NCBI GenBank assembly: GCA_000004985.1
Contig: GG738852.1
Reading direction: 5' to 3' (one strand)
DNA: 64,000 nt
Origin: Naegleria gruberi
Lineage: Eukaryota
Of this stretch, positions 3,476-52,139 are shown piece by piece (within the stretch, counting starts at the first letter, position 1; every line of letters begins with the position of its first letter). Position numbers and translations under genes: made by a program. The notes beneath the pieces are model-generated. The model made no database searches. It was given only the letters and a program-made list of their open reading frames with translations, and was not told the DNA's origin.

Positions 3476-6400
3476 ATGAATAAATTGCGTTCTGTTGTGT
3501 CAAAGAAGAAACAACGTTACCAAAAGGAAGGTTTTGACCTCGACTTGACGTACATTAGTGATCGTGTCATTAGGTAAGTTTCTACTCGAAAGACAATAGT
3601 TTCGAATAAAGAATAGTATGGGTTTCCCTTCAACAGGTGCAGAAAGTTTGTACAGAAATCCTTTGGAAGAAGTAAAATCCTTTTTCCAGTCCAAACACGA
3701 CGACCACTACAAGATTTATAATTTGTGTTCGGAGAAGAATTATGATCCTAGTGTATTTTCGAATCGTGTTGCTAGGTAAGTTTCGAATAGAATAATAATA
3801 GTAACACCTTTTATAGATTCCCATTTGATGACCACAATGCTCCACATTTTTCATTAATTTTGGATTTTTGTGAAGGTGAGTTTAAAGTTTCGAATTGTTT
3901 GATGGAATTGTATAGATGCTTGTCGTTACTTGATGGAAGATAAACAAAATACTCTTGCTGTTCACTGTAAAGGTAAGTCTAAATTGCTATGAATTCATTC
4001 CATTGACATGTGACTTTAGCCGGCAAAGGAAGAACTGTATGTTTTTCTAATAGTATTTGAAAATTAATGTTTTAACAACAAAAAATATCCATTAACAATT
4101 ATCATCAACACACAACCGATATTTCATCATCAATCATACCAATTATGTCATTGCACAAATTTCTCTCTCAAATAGGGTACTATGGTTTCATCTTTGATGA
4201 TTTATACTGGTTTCTGCTCAACTGCATCCGAAGCTATGGAATTATTTGGTAGAATCAGATGTAATGATTCTAAAGGTGTGACTATTCCTTCTCAGAAGAG
4301 GTAAGTTTTGATGCATTTTTCTTCATTTACTAAAGATTTTCAATGTTAATCATTCGATCATTGTGAAATCTCTGAAATAGATATGTTCAATATTTTGAGG
4401 AATGTGTTGTTCATAGAGGAATGAGATTTCCAACAAAAGATGCGAAAATTACACTCAAAGCTGTTCATATGAATTCAGTTCCACACTTTGATAGAGATGA
4501 AGGAAGTGATCCATACTTTGTCATTCATCAACCTTTCTATGATAAGGAAACAAGAGATAATTATCGTATGGAAAAGTTATTTGATTATTCGGTAAGTTGA
4601 TCATTTTACATAATTTGCTGAAATTCACACAATTTGTAGCAAAATGAAAAAGTTAAACATTTAAAGAAGGGAGAGGAAGTTTGGATTAAAAATTTGAATA
4701 TTGACCTTTCTGGTGACTTTAGAATGATTTTCTATGATATGGATAAAGTCAAGAAGGATGAAAAAATGTTCATGCTTTGGTTGAATACAAACTTTTTACA
4801 CTTGCACCAACCTTACAATTCTTCCAATTCAATTCCACATAGAAAATTTTTGGGTCCTAATGATATTGTTGTTAGAATTCCAAAAGTTGAATTGGATAAA
4901 GCTGTAAAAGACAAGAAGAATCAAGCATTTGATGCTGATTTTTATGTTGACTTGATTATTGAAGTGAAGGAACCAAGTCAATATTCTGAACCACACAAAT
5001 TTGTGTACAATACACCAGACAGTGGAAAGGAATTGTTTGGAGAAATTCAACAATACGCTAAAACTGAAGCTTCAAGCAAGGAAAAGGAAAAAGCCAGAAA
5101 ACAATACGAACAAGGTAGAGAATTCTTTGCATTGAAACAATATTCCAATGCTGTTACATCTTTCTCGAATGCTATTTTGATTGATAGTGGATTTGAGGAA
5201 GCTTACATGTCAAGAGGTTTAGCTAACATGAATTTGAAACGTTTCCCTGAAGCAATTTACGATTTCACAACTGTTTTGAATATTCTGGCTAAGGGAACTA
5301 CAAGTTTGGGTGAAGATATTCCAATTCAAGATAGTATTACAATTACTTTAAGAGCATATCACTCCAGAGGTAAATGTCATACTAAAATGAAGGAATATGA
5401 ATTTGCCATCAAGGATTATGATAGTGCCACTTCAATTTTAGAACATGCTCAACATATTGGAAACGATGGATGTTCTACCACTACTGTATCCAACAATAAT
5501 CACTCTACATCTCCTTTCACTGATTCACTCTTCCAAACATTCTTTAGAGTTTATCTCGATAGAGGTCTCATTAACGATGCTCTTCAAAAATACTCTGACT
5601 GTATTATTGATTATACTAACTTTATCAAATATATGGATCCACTCTCTGAATCTCTAGTTGTTAAATTGAGAGAAGGTAAAATAACTGCAAACAAGTATGA
5701 ACAATACTTGTTTGAATTGTTCCAAGCCTTTTACAATAAGGCAATTGCTATTGGAAAGGTCGATAATTATCCTAACAAGGAAACTCAAGTATTCCATGAC
5801 TTGAACAAGGCAGTTGATTATATTGAAAAGATGTCTGACCCAATTAACAGTCCAGATGCTCTAGTATTTGGTCAAGTCTACCTTGCCAGAGGTGATAGAC
5901 AAACAGATAAGGAAGCTGCCATTAACGATTTCCTTAAATGTCTCTTATATGATAAGACTAACAGGATAGCTACAAAGAGATTGGCTGTTTTACTCTATGA
6001 ACAAAAGCAGTACAAGAGAGCTGTTCTCTATTTTTCAAAACTCATCAAGGATGAACCACAAAATGTCAAAATGCTTACCAATAGAGCTATTTGTTATTTA
6101 AAATTGGAACTTTATGAAAATGCCATTGTTGATTTTAAGGCAGCTCAGAATTTATCACCTGATACTATGAATTTATATGTACAATGTGCCAGATGCTACA
6201 GAAGAAAACACGAACTCTCAGACCCAGCTCAAATACCTCAAAAAGAATTGGAAGATTGTGAAATTCAATATTCAACAGCTATTGATTATCTTCAAAAGAG
6301 AAAGAAGGCAGCTACTCCATCCACTCCAAGCACACCAACTCTCTCTTCATCCTCAACTATTAAGGACGATGATCTTAAAACTCTCTACTTTGAACGTGGT

Positions 6401-6724
6401 ATGACTAGATTCGCTCTGAAAAAATACGAAAGTGCTATTCTCGATTATAGTCATTGTCTTGAACTCGACCCAAATCATTCCCTAGCTCTCTACAATAGAG
6501 CTTACACTCGTCAAAAATTCTTGAAACAATACGACAAGGCCATCACTGACTATGAACAAGTTCTGACCTTCAATTCATCTGATCTAAAGGCACGTCTTGA
6601 AAAGGGATGTTGCCTCTACTATTTAAAGAAAGATGAAGAAGCAATTATGGAATGGCAATTAGTATTGAAAAAAGATCCAAACAATGAAGCTGCCAAAGTG
6701 TATCTTTCCCAATTAGCTAAATAA
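3476..6724 (+). CDS. PTEN-like lipid/protein phosphatase (phosphatase + C2 domain) fused to a C-terminal TPR-repeat domain of roughly 480 aa. 8 exons: 3476..3573, 3617..3775, 3817..3875, 3916..3972, 4020..4036, 4176..4300, 4381..4591, 4640..6724.
   Basis: The spliced product reads KKQRYQKEGFDLDLTYISDRVIS|MGFPSTGAESLYRNP...HYKIYNLCSEKNYD...FPFDDHNAPHFSLILDFCE|DACRYLMEDKQNTLAVHCKAGKGRTGTMVSSLMIYTGF...KGVTIPSQKRYVQYFEE.... This is collinear with human PTEN including the HCKAGKGRTG P-loop, followed by a C2-like region (MFMLWLNTNF). Exon 8 continues into many TPR-like 34-aa repeats (AYMSRGLANMNLKRFPEAIYDF...). Confidence 0.85.
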
Positions 6725-6808
6725 ATATTCACTCCATTTTAACTCAATTCAACAAAGTTTTTAAAAAAAAAATCAACAAATTTTCTCGCTTTTTAAAAAT
6801 AGAAAAAA

Positions 6809-9800
6809 ATGAATAAACGACTAGAGGAATTTTCTCCTAAGCCAGTTGTTCGGAGCAGTAGAACAGCTGCTGCATCATCAAGTAATAGTAATATGGATGC
6901 TGATGATGATCAATTAATGGTAATTGATGAAAAAATCCTTCAAGAATTTAAACAATTTCACTCATCAGAAATGATTGAATATAATTCTAAAAAGTTTATT
7001 GAAAAGTATTGGAGCAATACACAAGAGAAGAACGAAAAGACCATGTATTTGGTAACCTTTTTACGTGATGTGATATATAAAGTACCAGAACATGAAGAAA
7101 AGGAATTACAAGTTTCGGAGAGGACACAAACAAACAGACAAAGATTAGAAGATTTGTTGGGAGGCTTGACCGGAGGAAATACTCCTACCATTAACAATTT
7201 TATGCAGCTATTGTCTGGATTGAGAGATCAACCAATGCCCATCACTACTTATTCTGAAGTTATAGTAAATCCTGATGAAACGGTAGAGATTGGATCCGAT
7301 TGGTTGTCTTGCTTGTTATGTTATGGACAAATGCAAAAGGAAGCACAGTACAAGAGAATATTAACAACAAATAGAGGAGTTTGTGGTAAAACTTGGACAG
7401 TTGGACAAATTGCATTCAAATGTAAAACTTGTCAGATGGATCCAACTTGTGCTATTTGTGAAGAATGTTTCAAGAAGGGAAATCATGAAGGACATGATTA
7501 TTCCATGACTAGAAATTCTAATGGTATGTGTGATTGTGGTGATGTTGAAGCTTGGAGTGTATCAGGTTTTTGTTGTGATCATACTGGAAGAAGTGATCCT
7601 CTGGCCCACTTGACCCCTGATTATTTGGAACTTTTGAAAGCCATCACCAAAGGATTATTCTCTAAAGAGGGTGTCATTAATAATTACATTCGAGAAATTA
7701 CAACCAAGTACAAATCGTTAAAAGATGAAGGTTCCAGAAAAAAGTCATTCCAACTGCAAACTCTCTACCAAAATTTCAAACAAGTTCTAGAAACTGTTTT
7801 GGAAAATTTTGATTCATCACCTTGTCTCAAAAAGTTAGCATATTTGGAACTTAAAGAGTTGAAAAAGGGATCGACGTCTCTAGATGAAATATTACTGAGC
7901 ATACCATCAATGACTCAACCAATCAAGTATTTGTATTCTGATATCTTTATGTCTTTCATAACAGACATTGATTTTAAAACATTTTTCTCGGAGAGATTTA
8001 TTGCTCATTACTCCATAATTATTGAAGACTACAAGGAATATTTGAAAACAAAAAATAAGGAAAATCGTGAAGATGATGAGAGAAAGTCAGTCCACATCTC
8101 TTCTCTTTCTGTTCAGCTATTAACTACTCCAACCGTAGCTGCCCACTTGATAGAAAATTGCAACTTGGTCTCAGTTCTTTTAGATACGTTAATAGAAACT
8201 GTAGAGGATGAATCTATAATGGATGAGACTAGAAATAATAGATTAGTTTATAATCCTGAAGCCAATTCTAAAAAAGTAGAAGCTCTGTATCATATCATTT
8301 TTGATATTAACTATTGTGTTATGCATCAAAAATTCAGTGATCATGTTTTACTCAATGAAGATTGCTACCACAAATTTTTAACATTCCTCTCCTATCTTCA
8401 AGCAACAATTGATATTAATAGAAAAGATAGCGATGACTCTCAATGGTATACGGCCTTCAATTTGGAGATGGGTACTTTACCTAAAATCATTAGATCCATT
8501 ACCAGTTTTATCGAAGGATATGCTAATGATTCAAAATATAAGACTATCCTCCGTCAATTAATTATGAATCTCAGCAAGATCATTTTGGATGATAACTTTG
8601 AAATTGAAACAGATGGTACTGTAAAAGTTAATCCATTCAATATTCCAATTACATACAACTTACCATTGCACAGGTTTGCAACAACCATATTCAAACAATT
8701 AATGTCAATATTCCCAACTGTTTCTCTCAAGTCATCTATTTCTGAAATTTTAGAACAAACATCACCAAACTCGCCACAAGTAACAAATCAATTCTTAATA
8801 CAGTTACTTGAACAGCCACTCAAAATTTTTGTTACTTCAGCCCAAATTACTGCTAGACTTTGGCAAAGAAATCATGAACATAGTAAGTAATTTAAATTTG
8901 AAAATCTTAAGATCAATTTTTCCAGTTCTTGAGCAATCTTATAATTATAATTCTGAAGCTTTTGGTGATTACACCTATTGTAATGACATATTCTTGATTC
9001 AAATTATTAGTGGACTCATGGATAATCATGATTTAATATTTAGAACACTTATCAAAAAGTTCAACAACTCCTTGGATGAATTGAAATTGTTTACCAAGGA
9101 AAAGCTAAAAGAAGATGAAGATAAAAGATCCATTTTGGAAGAAGAGTTTGCAAGACTCTTAGTTTGCATAAGTACCAACAGAGTATTTATGGATTCAATG
9201 AGCAACTTTGATATTTGTAGAAAATATGTTCTTCATTACTTGTTTACTGAGGAAAAATGCAAATTTTCAGATATTGTTTCGGCAGTTCCAAAATCCTTCA
9301 GAGCAGCTGGTATTGATCTCAAAGTTATTGTAAACGAAGTTGCTAATTTCCACAAGCCAAAAGGATCTCACGATCAGGGTTATTTTACTGTAAAATCAAA
9401 TTATTGGGATGAATTGGATCCATACTTTATTGGTATGAGCTCTCAATTATTTTATCAAGCTACAGAACAATACAAGACACAAACAGGGCTAAAACAACCT
9501 CCACCAATTTGTCTGGAAAAGCCAATATTTGCTGCCAATCAACAACTTGAAAGTGGGCTTACAGGATTAATGCTCAGTAATTCACTTTACAAGATAATTT
9601 TCTTTATCATGTATAGAACGATAATTTGGAGAAAGGATTCTAGCCAAGAACAGTTACCAGCTTTTGTTCTTCATTTACTCTTACTCTCACTGAATCATGT
9701 TCCTACTGGTACAGCAGAAGTTTCCCAAATAACTGTTCCTTCTAAACAATCCTTGCTCTCACCAATTAATAGTTATTTGGACATTCCATTTAAAGATGGT

Positions 9801-12080
9801 GAATCTCCAGTCAAGCTCATTCTTCGACCAATAGAAGATAGTGAAGGCAATGAATATTCTATCATTAGAATGCTTTTCGAATTTGGAAATCAAGGTGAAC
9901 TTGTTAATAAGATTTTCAATAGATTGATTGAATTGAACGAAGCTTGTGATAAAATTGTTGTTGAGGCTAGATTAAAGAAAGAAAACACCAGTAATAAGGA
10001 AGAGAAGGAAGCCAAGAAGAAGAGAGCTTTAGCCAATCGTCAAAAATTGTTGGAAAAGATGAATGCCAGTCAGAAAATGTTTGCCCAGAGCTTGGAAGAA
10101 GAGGAAGACACTGTTGACGATTCCGACAAATTGAAATGTGCCCTCTGTCATGACCACAAGTCACCAGAAGGAAACGAGTCTCTTTCTCTCCTCTGCCAAA
10201 TTGTTAACAACCCATTCCCTCAAATCACTAGAAACAAGGAAAATGTATCCCTCTTTGGAAATATTAGAAACAAACCAATTGTTGATATTGGAGAATTAAC
10301 AGAAGCATTTGCTGATGTCAATAAGGAACACAATGTTCAAATTAATTTCTGCTCTCATGCTTGCCATGCCGATTGTTTTGATAGATACTATACAAATCTT
10401 GTTCAAGAAGAATCTAGACGAAGAAGATTTAAAGGTTTTGGTCAAATAGATTTGGAAAGTATGGAAATACTCTGTCCAATTTGTTCTAGAGTGGCAAATT
10501 GTCTCTGCCCAATTGTTTCAAATCATGCCAATTTGCTCCAATCATCCAATTCTGTATCAACAGAATTACCATCACTTGAAACAATCGCTTCATTCATGAA
10601 GGATATTAAGGTTAAGGACAAGGCAGAAGATGTGAAAACTTCCACTACTCTTTCAACTATTTGTGAGAAAATTATTAATAAGAAGAAAGAAGACTTGGGT
10701 GATACTCTCGATCCAATGCCAGTTGATATTGAACCTTTTGAGTTGATTGATTCGGCATACTTTTCCAATACGTTTAGTTCGGAGATCGCTGTAGAGGAAA
10801 TACTTCAAAGAAGTCAACCACATTTACAAGTATTGCCTGAAGCAGTCAGAAAATCCCTCAGCCACGTATTTGGTCTTCTCATTTCATTCCAACAACTTAA
10901 TGAAAAGAATAGAGGAAAGACTCTTCAAGAAATTAATGCAGTAGTTGGTTCAATGATGGGCTTGAAATCCTATGCAAATTTGAGCCTTTATGATGAAGGA
11001 TTTAGAGAAAGAAAGATGTATCTTCCATTCTTGAGTGGAGACATGTTTACACTATTTGTGAGGTTAACAACCTTGCTTTTCTCATCTGAAAGAAAGATGG
11101 ATTCAGCAATGTTCAGAGATTTGTTAATGGTATTCTATACATCACATATCATTCAGATAATTATGCAATGCAACTTGAGACTTCAACAATCATTTAGTAC
11201 AGGCATTCCATCTATTGATAAGGAAATCTCCACAATAGAGAATATTCCAATATTTGAAAGATTTGAACTCAGAACCCTTGAAACTGACATTATTTTATCT
11301 GAAGATGAAATTGCTAAAATGTCCTGCGGTTTCTTAAGAAGAGTTGCTCTGTATTATTCGTTACTTTTCCCAGAAGAAGAAATTCCAACCTCAAGCTCTG
11401 AACATGTAAATTTGACGAATTATCTCCACCTTCCAACAGTAGATAACCTTTTGGTAATGATTAGAGAATCTAACCCTTATTCTGAGTTGATAACTAAATG
11501 GATTGATCAAGTTAAATTGTCCATGCAAAGTCTTTCAAAAGCCCTCAATGAAGAAACACAAGATGAAGATGATGAAGATTTGTATGCTAGTCAAGCTGAT
11601 TCTTTGATACCTTGCTTTGCAACTCCAAAACCTTTCAGCTTTATTGAGCTACCAAGATTATACGAAGATCTCATTCTCAAGCATAACAATGAAAGATGCC
11701 CACTCTGTTCCAAGAAATTGGAAAATCCTGCCATTTGTTTAATCACTGGAGAATTAGTATGGCTGAAGCAATGCACATGTGAGAAGCACATTTGTGGTAA
11801 GCTTACAAGATATACCAGGGAGAAATATTCTGGATTTGGACTCTTCCTTGTTATTAAATCATCGAGAATTTTGCTTATGCACGAAAGTAGATCAGGAATT
11901 TTGCATTCCCCATACCTAGATAGTCATGGAGAAGAAGATAAGAACCTTAAAAGAGGTGTTCCTTTATTCTTCCACAAAGAAAGACTCGATGAAAACATTC
12001 AAAAGTTAGGAAGAATGAATTGGGATCATGATACCATCATTTTGGAAAAATGTTCTAATTTGCAAACTCATGTTTTGTAA
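6809..12080 (+). CDS. UBR1: UBR-box N-recognin E3 ubiquitin ligase (UBR1 family); 2 exons joined by a 43-nt intron (8883..8925)
   Basis: UBR box CGKTWTVGQIAFKCKTCQMDPTCAICEECFKKGNHEGHDYSMTRNSNGMCDCGD at about 7380-7560. RING-like cluster CALCHDHK...CSHACHADCF...CPICSRVANCLCP. C-terminal CPLCSKKLENPAICLITGE. The donor CATA|GTAAGT and acceptor TTTTCCAG| join the 693-aa and 1090-aa ORFs in frame (...EHILEQSYNYN...). Confidence 0.85.
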
Positions 12081-14122: not shown

Positions 14123-15298
14123 TCAATCACGATTATGGTGTGTTTTATGGTGTTGATGATGGTCAAGTACTTTTTCATTCATGGATTGGAAATTCATTTG
14201 GATGGAATGAAGGAGAGCTAGTTGTGCTCTTGTTCTGATGAGATTGTGTTGTGGATAGGTAGTTTTGTAATAGGTATCACCGTTGATGTAATCTGTTAGA
14301 AATCTCAATGCCTGCTCAAAGGTAATATACTTGGCACTGAAAGCTAGATATTCAATTTCGATATCTGTGAGGAATTTGTAACCCTCAGAGAGATATCCAT
14401 TGGTAAAGCTTTCGAATATGTCCATTTTGAGATGAATGTTTTGAGTATTTGGATCATCTTCTGTAGATGTGTTACAATACGAACGAATGGCATCTCCAAA
14501 ATCATTCAATACTGTACTGCACATTACAGTGTCAAGGTCAATTAAGCAACATGCCTTATTGGTCTCAGTATCGAATAAAATATTACTTAATTTCGTATCG
14601 TTATGAGTAATTCTCAGTGGAATTTTGTTACTTTCTACCAATTCCCAAAAATCAATCATTTCCTTTCTATAATTTTCCACAATTCCAATTTCATCTTTCA
14701 CTTCCTCCAATCTGTTAACAATATTCCTTTCAATGGCTTGATCAAATTGTTCAAATCTGAATTTAATATTGTGAAATCCAGGTAACACATCCTTAATAAT
14801 GCATTCTCTATTTTCATAGGTGATATTTCCATGGCTCTCAGAAACCAAATCAGAAAGCATATTCTGGAATTTTCCAATCATTTTACCTCCTTCAAACGCC
14901 AACTCTTCCGAATCAGCCTTTTCATGAGTAGTGGTATTTTCTATAAACTTAAACATGGTCCAATATTGAGAGTTTTCCGAATCTTGATTCTCAATCAATT
15001 TGTAAAATAATTTTCCATCATTGATGGTAGGAACAATAGAAAGAGTCTCCCTATCCGGATTTCCTCCCAATTTTGCAATTTTCCCTCTCAAATGTTCAAT
15101 CACGAGGGAAATATTATTCATCATGAGTTGAATGTTTTTAAATATTTTGTGATTCTTTCGTTGGAGAATGTATTTATTGTTCGGAGAGGGAATGTTAAGT
15201 TCTACCAGATAGGTATCATTGATGAGTCCACTCGGAATTGGTTCGATATTTATATTTCCAAGATTTGGACCTAAAAATTGGCTTACGATTTCATTCAT
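14123..15298 (-). CDS. Aminoglycoside-phosphotransferase / choline-kinase-like (APH family) small-molecule kinase
   Basis: N-terminal GLINDTYLV nucleotide-binding-like motif. HNDTKLSNILFD...CLIDLDTV catalytic (Brenner) motif. Confidence 0.55.
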   Translation of the reverse strand: MNEIVSQFLGPNLGNINIEPIPSGLINDTYLVELNIPSPNNKYILQRKNHKIFKNIQLMMNNISLVIEHLRGKIAKLGGNPDRETLSIVPTINDGKLFYKLIENQDSENSQYWTMFKFIENTTTHEKADSEELAFEGGKMIGKFQNMLSDLVSESHGNITYENRECIIKDVLPGFHNIKFRFEQFDQAIERNIVNRLEEVKDEIGIVENYRKEMIDFWELVESNKIPLRITHNDTKLSNILFDTETNKACCLIDLDTVMCSTVLNDFGDAIRSYCNTSTEDDPNTQNIHLKMDIFESFTNGYLSEGYKFLTDIEIEYLAFSAKYITFEQALRFLTDYINGDTYYKTTYPQHNLIRTRAQLALLHSIQMNFQSMNEKVLDHHQHHKTHHNRD

Positions 15299-15340: not shown

Positions 15341-16516
15341 TTATTCTTGATCATCTTCTGCTTGATAATTTTCATCATTAGCATCTTCCTCTTCGTAATA
15401 TTCATCATCTTCATCAATATCTTCCTCATAATCCTCATCATCATCTTCCTCATCTTCTTCCTCATCATCGTCATCATCCATGTAAAGTGAAATTGGTCTT
15501 CTAATTCCAATGAGAACTGTTTTCATTTGAGTGACAAAGGCAACATTATTGGCCTCATCTCCCTCAATGCAGAATGCAAGTGTGAAATCATCCGTCTTGT
15601 CTGAGATAAATTGATTCGTTTCAAAGGTATTTCTTTGTAAAATCAAATTGATAGAGTGTTTCTTTTCCTGCTCTGAAACATATTCCTGTAATTTGCTGAC
15701 ATAGAGACAAATTTCAATTATCTTTTCTTTGAGTTCCTTTTTAATGTTTGCATGATTGGCTTCAATACTGTCCATGAAACTTAAATATGATCTCGATGTC
15801 AAGTACCAAATCATTTTTGGAGTTGAAGTTGTAACATCATGTTTCGAATAGGAAGCACTCATACCAAGATTTGGAATATTTTGCTTTGGAATAATTGAAA
15901 AACTCAATGTAAATGTTGAGCTTTGTCCCATTCCCAAATCTTTTGTAACTTGTTGACCTTTAAATGTTGAGAGAAATCTGTTTTGAAACCAATTCACATG
16001 TTTGACTTGTTCCAAAGGATAATACCTCGATGCCAATTCAAATGCCTTGCTCACTCTCATCATTTGAATGATTTCTCTCAATGTAAGAAATGGAAATATG
16101 TGATTATTAATAATTTTGAATGGAATTTGCTTTTTACAAATAGAATACTTTAACTTTTCAAGATCGGACCTGAAAGATTCATGATTTTGTGTTTTCTTTC
16201 TTTCCTTGATGAGTGATGATCTCATCTGACGAGCAAATTCTTCAATTTTTCCAATATTTAATTTTCTGTCTTCTGATGATGAGGTTTCGTCTGTTGGATT
16301 TTCGTTTTCTTGTTGAGGAGGATTGGCTGCCTCTTCATTATCGTCATCATTGGTTGATTCGTCATCTCGGGATTTAGTTTTCAACATGTCGTTGAATAGT
16401 TTCTCCTTCTCATGATATTCCTTTAGTCTTTGTTCAGTTTCTCCTAACAAATCACTATCGAATAAATTTTCAAAATTACCCAGAAGAGAAAGGTTCTTAA
16501 ATTGTTGTGGAAGCAT
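15341..16516 (-). CDS. Hypothetical protein with an F-box-like motif and a poly-acidic (D/E) C-terminal tail
   Basis: IPFKIINNHIFPFLTLREIIQMMRVSKAFELASRY; C-terminus DDDDDEEEDEEDDDEDYEEDIDEDDEYYEEE. Confidence 0.4.
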   Translation of the reverse strand: MLPQQFKNLSLLGNFENLFDSDLLGETEQRLKEYHEKEKLFNDMLKTKSRDDESTNDDDNEEAANPPQQENENPTDETSSSEDRKLNIGKIEEFARQMRSSLIKERKKTQNHESFRSDLEKLKYSICKKQIPFKIINNHIFPFLTLREIIQMMRVSKAFELASRYYPLEQVKHVNWFQNRFLSTFKGQQVTKDLGMGQSSTFTLSFSIIPKQNIPNLGMSASYSKHDVTTSTPKMIWYLTSRSYLSFMDSIEANHANIKKELKEKIIEICLYVSKLQEYVSEQEKKHSINLILQRNTFETNQFISDKTDDFTLAFCIEGDEANNVAFVTQMKTVLIGIRRPISLYMDDDDDEEEDEEDDDEDYEEDIDEDDEYYEEEDANDENYQAEDDQE

Positions 16517-49922: not shown

Positions 49923-52139
49923 ATGTTTCTTCGTCGTATGATTAATGCCATCTCACAATCATCAGAGTCTGGCAAATCTGATAATTCGGCCTATGCTCTC
50001 AATATTGACCATATGGAAATACCTATAGAGGAGTGGAGTCATAAAGTGGTCACATGTTTTTTGTATAAGGAACAATTTTTCGAATTAATTCCCAAAGTTA
50101 CGAAACTGAAATATGAAGGTGTTGATTTTCTGACAAAAAACAAGGAACAATTGACTGCCGAGTTGAAAGTACATGAAGACGAAATTACTGAGTTGATGGC
50201 TAGAATCGAAAGTGTAAAAGTGAAACAAAAGTATTATTCGAAGGCTAATAGATTGACACTTTCAGAGACAGATACAGCAGATATTAATTCTCAACCAGCA
50301 GTTGGAGACCCATCATCGCCAAACAATACTTCAAACGGAATTGCCATCAAAAACAAACCAATCGATTCAACAAGAAATATGTCAGGCTCGCCGAGTGCAC
50401 AAACTTTATCTGCATCACCAATGAATGGAAGTAGAGTTCCTCCACCTGGCCTCACTGAATTGGATAGACAGAGGAGAGGCACTGGGTTGGAGAGGGGCAA
50501 ACTTCCAAGCTCTCCAACAGGAGCAACCTCTCCTTCGAGCTCATCAATTTCACCACCAGCATCATCATCAGGAGAAGCACATTTAAATATTAGTAATATT
50601 CAACTTTTGAAAATTGTGGAATCATTTAAGAGACAACTCAAGGAAAATGATCTTCTCGCAGAAAGATCATACCGACTCAATAAGTATAAGAATACATTTA
50701 CTGGAAGCGATGCAACCACATTATTGCATAAATTGATGAGAGATGTGGCAAAATCTGCAACGAGATTCGATGCCATTGATTTGGGAAATGCAATGATAAG
50801 AGATGGATTCATAAAACATGTTGCCGAAGATGAAGACTTTAAAGATGAGCCAGGTCAATTGTACTTTATTTCCGACGATCCTAGAGCAAGAGACAGTTTG
50901 AACTTGAATAATAAGAAGGGAAGTTCTGCATTCTTTGCCGAAGAGGACAGATCCATCACCAAAGATATAATGACACCTGCAGCTACTGATTTAATTTATA
51001 GAGGTGATTGTGCCTCCAAGATGATTGTACTGATTAAGAATACAGACACTTTGCTCGAGTCTTTAATTTTCCAAGCAGGAATGCTCAATGATAAGGAGAA
51101 GAAGACATTGGAAGCCGTTACTAAAAAGCTCAAAAACTTGAACTATCCTGTCCCAGAGGTTCAAATTAGTTTGGTAGCTCAAGATTTGAGTTTGTCAGAG
51201 AGATACTTGTACAGTTATTTGAATCCAAACAGAATTCCAAGAGCTAAGAAGACTCTTTTGCAAGAAAAATCATGTGGAAAACAATTTATGGATATTGGAT
51301 TGGCCTTGACATGTACAGAAGGATTGGCTGGAGAATTTTACACTTTCGCATTAATTGTAGGAACATTTATTGTGGAATTTTCGGATAGATGTCATTTGGC
51401 ATTGGTAAGAGAAAAGGATTCGAGCTTTGTCAACTTTTTCCATATCACAACTATCAATGATAAGGAAAATATCGAATTGTGCTTAAAAACAGTTAGTAAG
51501 TGCTGTGTAAAGTGGAATGAAAAACCAGTTGCAAAGAATATCAACTCTAAAACTTTTGTAACTGAACTTTTCAGATGGATTGACATTCCTGAAAGTGTGA
51601 TTGAAACTGTTGCCTCAGATATGGACTTTATATCAAACTATCCAATCAACTCAAAATCACTCTTCTTACAAAAGGGACAACTGGAAGAAATTTACAAAGT
51701 ATCCGAGACTGTAGAAATTACTTCATCACTTCAAACACTTCTCAGTCAAATTACCAATCAAACCATTACATTCTACAAACATTCTGATTTGGCTGAATTC
51801 TACTTGATTGCATCCCACCTTTTGAATCCTGTTCAAAAACTTCTCATTTCCTCCTTTGCCAAGACATTTATGAGACAATTCAATGAGGGTATTAATTTAC
51901 CAAACTCTGAACCAATGTCCTACAAGGCAGCAAAGAAAATAACCAAAGAGAGATTATGTAAAATAGATGATGTTTTTACATGCCCATTTAAAGGTCATGG
52001 AATTTGCACAAAGAATGTAAAATATCCAAAAGCTGCAAATAGTGAAAACGAAACTCCAGTCCAATCTGAAAGCTCTCCTTCCGATTCTCTGACCTACCAA
52101 TACTTCCCTTGTAACATTTCATTACCTACCAGACAATAG
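49923..52139 (+). CDS. Signalling protein with an N-terminal SAM-like domain and a central DEP domain
   Basis: WSHKVVTCFLYKEQFFELIPKVTKLKYEGVDFL (SAM-like); RSYRLNKYKNTFTGSDATTLLHKLMRD... (DEP-like); S/P-rich linker. Confidence 0.5.
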   Translation: MFLRRMINAISQSSESGKSDNSAYALNIDHMEIPIEEWSHKVVTCFLYKEQFFELIPKVTKLKYEGVDFLTKNKEQLTAELKVHEDEITELMARIESVKVKQKYYSKANRLTLSETDTADINSQPAVGDPSSPNNTSNGIAIKNKPIDSTRNMSGSPSAQTLSASPMNGSRVPPPGLTELDRQRRGTGLERGKLPSSPTGATSPSSSSISPPASSSGEAHLNISNIQLLKIVESFKRQLKENDLLAERSYRLNKYKNTFTGSDATTLLHKLMRDVAKSATRFDAIDLGNAMIRDGFIKHVAEDEDFKDEPGQLYFISDDPRARDSLNLNNKKGSSAFFAEEDRSITKDIMTPAATDLIYRGDCASKMIVLIKNTDTLLESLIFQAGMLNDKEKKTLEAVTKKLKNLNYPVPEVQISLVAQDLSLSERYLYSYLNPNRIPRAKKTLLQEKSCGKQFMDIGLALTCTEGLAGEFYTFALIVGTFIVEFSDRCHLALVREKDSSFVNFFHITTINDKENIELCLKTVSKCCVKWNEKPVAKNINSKTFVTELFRWIDIPESVIETVASDMDFISNYPINSKSLFLQKGQLEEIYKVSETVEITSSLQTLLSQITNQTITFYKHSDLAEFYLIASHLLNPVQKLLISSFAKTFMRQFNEGINLPNSEPMSYKAAKKITKERLCKIDDVFTCPFKGHGICTKNVKYPKAANSENETPVQSESSPSDSLTYQYFPCNISLPTRQ

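What the first reader, a model, noticed from the sequence alone, without database searches (positions are those of the whole stretch)
3476..6724. PTEN phosphatase-C2 module continuous with a ~480-aa TPR-repeat domain
After hand-splicing seven short introns the product is collinear with PTEN through the catalytic P-loop (HCKAGKGRTG) and the C2 domain. The last exon then continues without interruption into many TPR-like repeats (ARKQYEQGREFFALKQYSNAVTSFSNAI...; YFERGMTRFALKKYESAILDYSHCLELDP...). Canonical PTENs end in a short tail with a PDZ-binding motif. A TPR scaffold on a PIP3 phosphatase suggests recruitment to a protein complex instead.
Basis: partly seen in the sequence, partly recalled or inferred. 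Interest (0 to 1): 0.55.

Follow-up and report, generated by a model that had tools for sequence, protein, structure and literature searches.

The report
Naegleria PTEN lipid phosphatase fused to TPRs
This is one real gene of the amoeba Naegleria gruberi that joins an apparently active PTEN-type lipid phosphatase to a long protein-binding TPR domain; the layout is found only in Naegleria and probably its relative Willaertia, sits in databases as an uncharacterised protein, and is a modest variation on a well-known enzyme.

Summary
Window 3476-6724 (+) holds one 8-exon gene with seven GT..AG introns of 40-139 nt, one of them flanking a 17-nt microexon. It encodes 936 aa.

- Residues 1-350 are a complete PTEN module. 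They match human PTEN at E 6e-67, every catalytic and PIP3-pocket residue is kept, and PTEN_C2 scores E 2e-19.
- Exon 8 runs without a stop from the second half of C2, through a conserved linker, into about 545 aa of TPR (Pfam TPR_1 E 7e-35). AlphaFold gives 27 helices, about 12 hairpins, at pLDDT 86.
- The window is Naegleria gruberi NEG-M.
- The annotated N. fowleri protein FDP41_005778 (943 aa) is collinear with my model from end to end. N. lovaniensis and two environmental Naegleria taxa share the uninterrupted C2-TPR reading frame, and the linker is under purifying selection.
- Willaertia magna has the same gene order, but it is annotated as two genes, and the break falls inside the TPR array.
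- Of 230 PTEN homologues checked, only these heterolobosean proteins carry TPRs.
- The TPR part has no standalone orthologue and lacks an intact Hsp70/Hsp90 clamp.

The TPR domain's function as a targeting or regulatory module replacing the PTEN tail is inferred, not shown. Verdict: a new variant of a known kind, of moderate interest.

The parts
3476..6724 (+). Whole PTEN-TPR gene: start codon to stop codon, 8 exons, 936 aa
   Evidence: Splice model. Collinear with N. fowleri FDP41_005778.
3476..3573 (+). Exon 1 (aa 1-33). It holds the N-terminal polybasic PIP2-binding motif RSVVSKKKQR (3488-3517).
   Evidence: The N-terminus is identical in N. fowleri and N. lovaniensis.
3617..3775 (+). Exon 2 (aa 33-86)
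   Evidence: The intron is absent in L003.
3817..3875 (+). Exon 3 (aa 86-106). It holds the WPD-like loop FDDHNAP with catalytic Asp91 and His92 (3821-3841).
3916..3972 (+). Exon 4 (aa 106-125). It ends within the P-loop (..AVHCK).
4020..4036 (+). Exon 5: a 17-nt microexon that encodes the core of the catalytic P-loop, (A)GKGRT
   Evidence: The microexon and its splice sites are conserved in L001 and L003, with only synonymous changes.
4176..4300 (+). Exon 6 (aa 131-172). It holds the TI loop VTIPSQKR.
4381..4591 (+). Exon 7 (aa 172-242): the end of the phosphatase domain and the first half of C2
4640..6724 (+). Exon 8 (aa 243-936): the second half of C2, the linker and the whole TPR domain in one open frame
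   Evidence: The same uninterrupted ORF is present in P0002, P0003 and P0004.
4421..4963 (+). PTEN-type C2 domain (aa 186-350; intron 4592-4639 lies inside this range). It includes the basic CBR3-like loop DMDKVKKDEK (4736-4765).
   Evidence: Pfam PF10409 at E 2.4e-19. Alignment to PDB PTEN.
4964..5089 (+). Conserved linker (aa 351-392). A short coil is followed by a long helix that runs directly into helix A of TPR1.
   Evidence: pN far below pS. AlphaFold helix at aa 368-406.
5090..6721 (+). TPR domain (aa 393-936). 27 predicted helices form about 12 TPR-like hairpins plus a capping helix.
   Evidence: Pfam TPR_1, TPR_2 and TPR_11. AlphaFold mean pLDDT 85.8. Foldseek best matches are the OGT and SPINDLY TPR superhelices.
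5462..5509 (+). Disordered, poorly conserved S/T/N-rich insert inside the TPR array (aa 517-532)
   Evidence: pLDDT below 50. Low identity to orthologues.
6290..6364 (+). Disordered insert (aa 793-817): a basic stretch, then S/T/P-rich sequence (KRKKAATPSTPSTPTLSSSSTIK). The first residues of the next part are acidic (DDD). It is a candidate phospho-regulatory linker.
   Evidence: pLDDT below 50. The composition, but not the sequence, is conserved in orthologues.
6365..6721 (+). C-terminal module of three TPRs plus a capping helix (aa 818-936). Together with TPR1-2 it is the best conserved part of the TPR region.
   Evidence: 62% identity to Willaertia. Closest solved sequences are designed consensus TPRs, then the RPAP3 and SPAG1 TPR domains; the clamp residues are not intact.

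Best explanation
Shown:
- The locus is a single protein-coding gene of Naegleria gruberi.
- Its 936-aa product is a complete PTEN-family module (phosphatase plus C2). All residues that human PTEN uses for catalysis and for fitting PI(3,4,5)P3 are kept, as are the N-terminal polybasic motif and the basic C2 loops used for membrane binding.
- This module is joined through a conserved linker helix to a TPR domain of about 545 aa and about 12 repeats, predicted to form a superhelix. The TPR domain takes the place of the short regulatory tail and PDZ-binding motif of animal PTEN.
- The fusion is conserved and under purifying selection across the genus Naegleria. It is probably present in Willaertia too.

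Inferred:
- The enzyme removes the 3-phosphate of PI(3,4,5)P3 at the plasma membrane. It would oppose the class I PI3Ks that Naegleria is reported to have.
- The TPR superhelix acts as a protein-binding platform. It would either dock the enzyme on a partner or cortical complex, or fold back to regulate the catalytic and C2 face.
- The disordered S/T-P-rich insert next to an acidic patch is a likely phosphorylation switch, in the way the phosphorylated tail works in animal PTEN.
- The TPRs are not Hsp70/Hsp90 EEVD receptors.
For: Gene model and frame.

PTEN identity:
- E 6e-67 to human PTEN structures over aa 4-360.
- PTEN_C2 above the Pfam cut-off.
- D91, H92, H122, C123, K124, K127, G128, R129, T166, I167 and Q170 are all conserved. 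So are the basic residues at positions 5, 10, 12 and 14, and K278, K281, K284, K329, K332 and K334.

TPR identity:
- TPR_1 at E 7e-35, with 8 stretches.
- AlphaFold model at pLDDT 85.8 and pTM 0.70, all helical.
- Foldseek hits to the OGT and SPINDLY TPR domains, E 1e-12.

One gene, not two:
- The single ORF carrying C2 plus TPR recurs in P0002, P0003 and P0004.
- The PTEN exons lie just upstream in L001 and L003.
- Every segment of exon 8, including the linker, has pN 0.09-0.25 against pS 0.52-0.88.
- N. fowleri XP_044559738.1 (943 aa) is collinear with the model.
- N. lovaniensis XP_044554468.1 is also a fused model.

Taxonomic restriction: only 5 of 230 PTEN-domain hits carry TPRs, and all five are heterolobosean.

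Conservation: TPR1-2 and TPR10-12 are as conserved between Naegleria and Willaertia as the C2 domain, 62% against 63%.

Substrate supply: class I PI3K is reported in Naegleria (PMC9928731; PMC3823935).
Against: - No transcript, protein or enzymatic data were available, so an internal polyadenylation site or an alternative isoform cannot be excluded.
- The Willaertia magna annotation splits the orthologue into two genes.
- No partner of the TPR domain is known.
- AlphaFold on full-length N. lovaniensis gives pTM 0.52. The tool returns no inter-domain error estimates, so there is neither support for nor evidence against an intramolecular contact.
- The TPR similarity to known proteins is generic, 12-15% identity in fold matches. 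It gives no specific functional lead.
- No N. gruberi annotated protein covering this locus appeared in the searches. The reference annotation therefore gives no support for N. gruberi itself.
Confidence: 0.8

Rival explanations
1. Two proteins rather than one. The PTEN module and the TPR array would be expressed separately, through an internal polyadenylation site, an unrecognised intron with a stop, or an internal promoter. The continuous frame would then be a read-through that is rarely or never translated as a whole.
For: The Willaertia magna annotation has two adjacent genes: KAL9642615.1 (550 aa) and KAL9642616.1 (467 aa). No cDNA evidence was available here.
Against: - No stop codon lies between C2 and the TPRs in four Naegleria taxa.
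- The linker is conserved at the protein level while synonymous sites are close to saturation.
- The Willaertia break lies inside the TPR array, after TPR2, not between the domains.
- Coding similarity continues upstream of the annotated start of the second Willaertia gene.
- One extra A in an A5 run, or a 71-nt GT..AG intron, restores a single frame there.
- The N. fowleri and N. lovaniensis gene models are fused.
Confidence: 0.06
2. The TPR domain is mainly an intramolecular autoinhibitor, as in protein phosphatase 5 or the phosphorylated tail of animal PTEN. It would not be a recruitment scaffold. It would cover the catalytic and C2 membrane face until a signal releases it, for example phosphorylation of the S/T-P insert or binding of a ligand.
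For: - The TPR domain occupies exactly the position of the autoinhibitory tail of animal PTEN.
- A conserved-in-kind disordered S/T-P-rich insert flanked by basic and acidic residues lies at aa 793-820.
- TPR1-2, next to C2, is highly conserved.
Against: No contact prediction could be obtained: pTM is 0.52 and no inter-domain error map is returned. Twelve repeats is far more than a lid needs. This rival is compatible with the scaffold role rather than exclusive of it.
Confidence: 0.25
3. The TPR domain is an Hsp70/Hsp90 co-chaperone type receptor that binds C-terminal EEVD peptides. That would tie the phosphatase to chaperones, as in PP5, CHIP, Hop and RPAP3.
For: After designed consensus TPR proteins, the best natural sequence matches of the C-terminal 3-TPR module in the PDB are SPAG1, RPAP3, DNAJC3, SGTA, STI1, PP5 and CHIP TPR domains, E 1e-15 to 1e-5.
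Against: In the alignments to the RPAP3 and SPAG1 TPRs, the five clamp positions K/N/N/K/R read R/M/N/K/E in this protein. By eye, the first and middle modules also lack the Lys and Asn of helix A1 (read directly from the sequence). The matches are no better than matches to designed consensus TPRs.
Confidence: 0.04
4. The catalytic module acts mainly on another substrate, not PI(3,4,5)P3. Candidates are protein phospho-Ser/Thr/Tyr, with the TPR superhelix selecting protein substrates as it does in OGT and SPINDLY, or PI(3,4)P2.
For: The best fold matches of the TPR domain are the substrate-selecting TPRs of OGT and SPINDLY. Established knowledge (not tested here): human PTEN has weak protein phosphatase activity and PI(3,4)P2 activity.
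Against: All the pocket residues that adapt PTEN to PIP3 are intact: K124, K127, the TI loop and G128. So are the membrane-binding motifs. The OGT match is generic, at 14% identity. An Asn at the TPR ladder position is present in only two repeats (read directly from the sequence).
Confidence: 0.08

Closest known systems
Human PTEN (and Dictyostelium PTEN): PI(3,4,5)P3 3-phosphatase
   Same: The phosphatase plus C2 module is collinear over aa 4-360, E 6e-67. The P-loop HCKAGKGRTG is identical. The WPD-like Asp, the TI loop, the N-terminal polybasic motif and the basic C2 loops are all kept.
   Different: There is no acidic phosphorylated tail of about 50 aa and no PDZ-binding motif. A 545-aa TPR superhelix follows C2 instead. 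The internal C2 loop is shorter.
Naegleria fowleri FDP41_005778 (XP_044559738.1, UniProt A0A6A5BN74) and N. lovaniensis C9374_011299 (XP_044554468.1)
   Same: These are orthologues with the same PTEN-TPR architecture. The N. fowleri protein is 77% identical and collinear from end to end.
   Different: Both are database entries labelled hypothetical or uncharacterised, or auto-named as a PIP3 3-phosphatase. No paper found here mentions them. The N. lovaniensis model lacks about 60 aa of the TPR region. This is probably a falsely predicted intron, and that stretch folds poorly in AlphaFold.
Other PTEN-module fusions: voltage-sensing phosphatases (Ci-VSP, TPTE), PTEN-formins, and protist PTENs with PH, kinase, RGS, DEP, EF-hand or TH1 domains
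   Same: They follow the same principle: the phosphatase-C2 cassette is reused with an accessory targeting or regulatory domain. Many such hits appear, and PTEN-formins in Naegleria are described in PMC8296547.
   Different: The accessory domain here is a TPR array placed C-terminal to C2. None of the other 225 PTEN-domain hits examined carries TPRs.
Protein phosphatase 5 (a TPR-phosphatase fusion)
   Same: A phosphatase is covalently joined to a TPR domain. In PP5 the TPR both autoinhibits the enzyme and recruits it to Hsp90 (established knowledge).
   Different: PP5 is a PPP-family Ser/Thr phosphatase with three N-terminal clamp-type TPRs. This protein is a Cys-based PTP-fold lipid phosphatase with about 12 C-terminal TPRs, and its clamp is not intact.
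TPR superhelices of OGT and SPINDLY; TTC7 in the PI4KIIIalpha complex
   Same: These are the closest solved folds to the TPR domain: 1w3b and 7y4i at E 1e-12, with TTC7B (5dse) and the PI4KIIIalpha complex (6bq1) also among the hits. They are long TPR solenoids that select substrates or scaffold a phosphoinositide enzyme.
   Different: Identity is only 12-15%. The similarity is generic to TPR solenoids and does not indicate orthology.

Membership tests
PTEN family (PTP-fold phosphoinositide 3-phosphatases) | CX5R P-loop of the PTEN type, HCKAGKGRTG, with the two Lys that accommodate PIP3 | tested here: met
   aa 122-131 are identical to human PTEN 123-132.
PTEN family (PTP-fold phosphoinositide 3-phosphatases) | General acid Asp in the WPD-like loop, and the TI loop (T167, I168, Q171) that widens the pocket | tested here: met
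   D91, H92, T166, I167 and Q170 are conserved, also in N. lovaniensis and Willaertia.
PTEN family (PTP-fold phosphoinositide 3-phosphatases) | PTEN-type C2 domain directly after the phosphatase domain | tested here: met
   PF10409 at aa 193-350, 69.8 bits against a cut-off of 27.1. It aligns to the C2 of the PTEN structures.
PTEN family (PTP-fold phosphoinositide 3-phosphatases) | N-terminal polybasic PI(4,5)P2-binding motif | tested here: met
   RSVVSKKKQRYQKEG aligns with IKEIVSRNKRRYQEDG. Four of the five basic positions are kept.
PTEN family (PTP-fold phosphoinositide 3-phosphatases) | Measured 3-phosphatase activity on PI(3,4,5)P3 | not testable with these tools
   This needs a recombinant enzyme assay.
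Animal-type PTEN (regulatory tail) | Short acidic C-terminal tail with a Ser/Thr phosphorylation cluster and a PDZ-binding motif | tested here: not met
   After C2 the sequence continues into the linker and the TPR domain and ends ...YLSQLAK. The tail does not define the wider family.
TPR repeat proteins (Pfam clan TPR) | Tandem 34-residue repeats that pass the curated HMM thresholds | tested here: met
   TPR_1 117.8 bits against 27.8, with 8 stretches. TPR_2 107.1 against 27. TPR_11 73 against 26.8.
TPR repeat proteins (Pfam clan TPR) | Antiparallel helix hairpins stacked into a solenoid | tested here: met
   The AlphaFold model has 27 helices at pLDDT 85.8. Foldseek probability is 1.00 to TPR solenoids.
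Hsp70/Hsp90-binding carboxylate-clamp TPR domains (PP5, Hop, CHIP, RPAP3, SGT) | Module of three TPRs plus a capping helix | tested here: met
   aa 818-936 form six helices plus a cap.
Hsp70/Hsp90-binding carboxylate-clamp TPR domains (PP5, Hop, CHIP, RPAP3, SGT) | Five clamp residues K, N, N, K, R on the A helices | tested here: not met
   Aligned to RPAP3 TPR1/TPR2 and SPAG1, these positions read R, M, N, K, E. The other modules were checked by eye only and also lack the K and N.

The most novel reading that the evidence does not exclude
The TPR superhelix, with its disordered S/T-P-rich insert, is a lineage-specific replacement for the phospho-regulated PTEN tail. It would act as a switchable intramolecular lid that also docks a heterolobosean-specific cortical partner. 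PIP3 turnover in a discoban amoeba would then be controlled spatially by a mechanism unrelated to that of animals and Dictyostelium. A second version of this reading: the TPR selects protein substrates, as in OGT, and makes this PTEN mainly a targeted protein phosphatase.
Probability: 0.15. Interest if true: 0.55.

Novelty: new variant of a known kind. Interest (0 to 1): 0.33.

Why it matters
PTEN is the central brake on PI3K signalling, and its regulation through the C-terminal tail is a major research topic. Naegleria belongs to Discoba, far from animals and from Dictyostelium. It still crawls, forms macropinocytic and phagocytic cups, and is reported to have class I PI3K.

- A catalytically intact PTEN in Naegleria supports an ancient PIP3 cycle in eukaryotes.
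- The best-scoring Naegleria PTEN, and the only Naegleria one among the top 120 hits, carries a large TPR platform in place of the tail. This suggests that the regulatory end of PTEN was reinvented in this lineage, and it gives a concrete handle (the TPR domain) for finding PTEN partners there.
- The orthologue exists in the pathogen N. fowleri, where trogocytosis depends on actin and phosphoinositide signalling.
- The gene seems to be missing from the N. gruberi reference proteome, so surveys based on that proteome would miss it.

The limits are clear. PTEN cassettes are fused to many domains in protists, the fused models are already public, and no function has been shown.

Tried and rejected
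I used the window's TPR region and the N. lovaniensis full-length protein instead. The latter is disturbed by that model's internal 60-aa gap, and no inter-domain confidence is returned, so domain contacts could not be judged.
2. The AlphaFold-database fold search (afdb50) was not available.
3. A profile search with the C2-linker-TPR1-3 junction returned only 3 hits. It missed the known Naegleria orthologues, so its negative result carries no weight.
4. Reading the N. gruberi reference annotation at this locus failed, because the neighbouring protein is not in the gene-position index. The claim that the gene is unannotated rests only on the absence of any N. gruberi protein among the hits.
5. 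The Hsp90/Hsp70 clamp hypothesis was rejected.
6. A search for a standalone orthologue of the TPR domain outside the Naegleria clade found only generic TPR proteins, at no more than 27% identity over at least a third of the query.
7. Literature and supplement searches for Naegleria PTEN, PTEN-TPR and the locus tags found only PTEN-formins.
8. There is no second PTEN-like or related TPR sequence elsewhere in the window.
9. Synteny is not conserved. The DEP-domain gene that lies next to the orthologue in N. fowleri is 47 kb away in the window, and the amidase neighbour shared by N. fowleri and Willaertia is absent from the window.
Full report
**What is in the sequence.** The window is AT-rich, at 33% G+C. 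It has short GT..AG introns and intergenic spacers of about 85-95 bp.

Starting from the ATG at 3476, seven introns give an open 2811-nt coding sequence that ends at the TAA at 6722-6724. They are 3574-3616, 3776-3816, 3876-3915, 3973-4019, 4037-4175, 4301-4380 and 4592-4639. Six start GTAAGT, GTGAGT or GTATGT, and all end in AG. The product is 936 aa.

Exon 5 is a 17-nt microexon (4020-4036) that encodes the centre of the catalytic loop. Only short ORFs under 80 aa lie on the opposite strand.

**Check of the observation.**
- Residues 4-360 align with human PTEN structures at E 6e-67, and with voltage-sensing phosphatases at about 1e-57.
- Pfam gives PTEN_C2 at aa 193-350 (E 2.4e-19) and several dual-specificity phosphatase models around aa 69-158.
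- Several TPR families score far above their cut-offs. TPR_1 reaches 117.8 bits against 27.8, with eight separate stretches.
- The last exon (4640-6724) contains the second half of C2 and all the TPRs in one frame. The ORF listing reports 4694-6724 as one 676-aa ORF.

The only corrections are that the TPR region is about 545 aa rather than 480, and that C2 starts in exon 7.

**Whose genome it is.** A 391-aa ORF of the window (15344-16516, minus strand) is identical to XP_002680842.1, NAEGRDRAFT_46664 of Naegleria gruberi. The window is therefore N. gruberi NEG-M.

**Is it one gene?** Five lines of evidence say yes.
1. The closest database proteins are P0002 (99% identical; a prokaryote-style ORF call on a short ENA contig), P0003 (73%) and P0004 (69%). 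All three are single ORFs carrying both PTEN_C2 and TPR Pfam hits.
2. On their contigs the PTEN phosphatase exons lie directly upstream, and the intron before the last exon sits at the same position, DYS|QNEK.
3. Nei-Gojobori counts between the window and two orthologous loci give pN 0.09-0.25 against pS 0.52-0.88 in every segment of exon 8. This includes the 42-aa linker between C2 and the first TPR (pN 0.11 and 0.22, pS 0.52). That stretch is therefore translated in this frame.
4. The cluster of P0003 contains the annotated N. fowleri protein FDP41_005778 (XP_044559738.1, 943 aa). It aligns with my model from Met1 to the last Lys at 77% identity, with no gap at any of the seven splice junctions. 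This is an independent gene prediction that arrives at the same structure.
5. The annotated N. lovaniensis protein C9374_011299 (875 aa) is also fused. UniRef names it phosphatidylinositol-3,4,5-trisphosphate 3-phosphatase. It lacks about 60 aa within the TPR region that are in frame and conserved in the other species, so that gap is probably a false intron. AlphaFold confidence collapses in that part of the N. lovaniensis model.

**Willaertia magna.**
- The next heterolobosean genus has the same order of sequences within 3.4 kb. It is annotated as two genes, of 550 aa and 467 aa, separated by 57 nt.
- The break is not between the domains. It lies after TPR2, in an AT-rich low-complexity stretch.
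- Similarity to the Naegleria protein continues upstream of the second gene's annotated ATG.
- One extra A in an A5 run, or a 71-nt GT..AG intron, restores a single frame.

I regard the split as a probable annotation or assembly artefact, but this is not proven.

**The PTEN half.** Aligned with human PTEN, the following are identical in N. gruberi, N. lovaniensis and Willaertia.
- The general acid Asp and the neighbouring His (D91, H92).
- The whole P-loop HCKAGKGRTG, including C123, K124, K127, G128 and R129.
- The TI-loop residues T166, I167 and Q170.

The N-terminal polybasic motif and most basic residues of the two membrane-facing C2 elements are kept. Nothing suggests a pseudo-phosphatase. 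Class I PI3Ks, which make the presumed substrate, are reported for Naegleria (PMC9928731; PMC3823935; see also PMC4617754).

**The TPR half.** AlphaFold on the window's own sequence (aa 355-936) gives mean pLDDT 85.8 and pTM 0.70, with 27 helices.
- I read these as about 12 TPR-like hairpins plus a capping helix.
- A long conserved helix (aa 368-406) leads from the C2 linker straight into TPR1.
- Two inserts are disordered: aa 517-532 and aa 802-815.
- The second insert sits within aa 793-817, a stretch that is basic and then S/T/P-rich (KRKKAATPSTPSTPTLSSSS), and DDD follows at aa 818-820. Its composition, but not its sequence, recurs in the orthologues.
- Foldseek finds only generic TPR solenoids, at 12-15% identity. 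OGT and SPINDLY are best, followed by Ctr9, TTC7, Ski3, APC subunits and Tom70.
- A sequence search with the TPR half finds the Naegleria orthologues and then unrelated TPR proteins, mostly 20-29% identical (higher only over short stretches). There is no standalone orthologue elsewhere.
- After designed consensus TPR proteins, the best natural solved-structure sequence matches of the last three repeats are the Hsp70/Hsp90-binding TPR domains of SPAG1 and RPAP3. In those alignments the five carboxylate-clamp positions read R, M, N, K, E instead of K, N, N, K, R. I do not file it with the co-chaperone TPRs.
- Between Naegleria and Willaertia, TPR1-2 and TPR10-12 are 62% identical. That is as conserved as C2 (63%), whereas the middle repeats are 22-52% identical.

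**How widespread is the architecture?**
- Among the best 120 hits of the word-indexed search, only the Naegleria and Willaertia entries carry TPR Pfam domains.
- The exhaustive HMMER search of 1.84 billion cluster representatives, queried with the N. lovaniensis protein, listed its best 150.
- I scanned all 230 PTEN-domain proteins retrieved by these searches with the TPR half. Only those five proteins have both parts.
- The other hits show that the PTEN cassette is very promiscuous in protists. Partners include PH, protein kinase, RGS, DEP, EF-hand, myosin TH1, GPCR and ion-channel domains. PTEN-formins are described in Naegleria itself (PMC8296547).
- The check is not exhaustive. 1,543 proteins have E below 1e-30 and only the top ones were seen. 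The junction-profile search was uninformative.

**Annotation and literature status.**
- No paper in the searchable library mentions a PTEN-TPR protein, these locus tags, or a Naegleria PTEN other than the formin fusions.
- No N. gruberi annotated protein appears among the hits to the full model or to the TPR half, although the N. gruberi proteome is in the collection. The gene therefore seems to be missing from the reference proteome. Seven small introns and a 17-nt microexon would make it a hard target for gene finders. I could not inspect the annotation directly.

**Mechanism.**
- Shown: one gene; an intact PTEN catalytic and membrane-binding apparatus; a folded TPR solenoid of about 12 repeats in place of the tail; conservation of the whole under purifying selection.
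- Inferred from established knowledge of PTEN and of TPR domains: the enzyme dephosphorylates PI(3,4,5)P3 at the membrane. The TPR solenoid supplies protein-protein contacts that localise the enzyme, gate it, or both. The S/T-P-rich acidic insert is a plausible phospho-switch, analogous to the animal PTEN tail.
- I rate the scaffold and regulator reading as the most likely, with pure autoinhibition as a compatible alternative. Chaperone docking, or a switch to protein substrates, are unlikely.

**Verdict.** It is a lineage-restricted domain-architecture variant of a very well-known enzyme. It is already present but unremarked in the N. fowleri and N. lovaniensis annotations, and apparently unannotated in N. 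gruberi. Interest is moderate, and no function has been demonstrated.

Noticed in passing
window 4020-4036 (introns 3973-4019 and 4037-4175): A 17-nt microexon encodes the catalytic P-loop core (A)GKGRT. The microexon and both pairs of splice sites are conserved in two other Naegleria taxa (L001 3201-3217, L003 1071-1087), and all nucleotide differences are synonymous. Willaertia has no introns at this position.
   Followed up: yes
window 3476-6724 versus the N. gruberi reference proteome: The window is N. gruberi NEG-M, yet no annotated N. gruberi protein matched the PTEN-TPR model or its TPR half. N. fowleri and N. lovaniensis do have annotated models. The gene therefore appears to be missing from the reference annotation.
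   Followed up: partly
L004 5001-8377 (Willaertia magna JBEGDK010000159.1): The orthologue is annotated as two genes, ABK040_009694 and ABK040_009695. The split falls inside the TPR array. One extra A in the A5 run at L004 6745-6749, or a GT..AG intron at 6711-6781, gives a single frame.
   Followed up: partly
P0001 (N. lovaniensis XP_044554468.1), around aa 486-487: The annotated model skips about 60 aa of TPR sequence that are in frame and conserved in N. gruberi, N. fowleri and the L003 taxon. AlphaFold confidence is low across that part of the model. This is probably a false intron.
   Followed up: partly
window 6809-12080 (+): Only 84 bp downstream lies a UBR-box N-recognin type E3 ligase gene, with zf-UBR, UBR1-like winged-helix and PRT6_C domains. 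It is read as two overlapping ORFs (6809-8890 and 8808-12080), so an intron or frame change lies near 8800-8900.
   Followed up: no
window 50151-52133 (+); L001 1-2361: The DEP-domain gene that lies immediately upstream of the PTEN-TPR gene in N. fowleri is about 47 kb away in N. gruberi. The amidase neighbour shared by N. fowleri and Willaertia is absent from the window. Local gene order has been rearranged.
   Followed up: partly
window 14123-15298 and 15341-16516 (-): Two adjacent ORFs are each exactly 391 aa. The first is an APH-family phosphotransferase, and the second is NAEGRDRAFT_46664 with no Pfam hit. They are not similar to each other, so the equal length is a coincidence.
   Followed up: yes
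P0194 (451 aa, metagenome-derived): This protein has a complete PTEN phosphatase-C2 module followed by the start of a second PTEN phosphatase domain. It is a tandem PTEN-PTEN arrangement in an unidentified organism.
   Followed up: no
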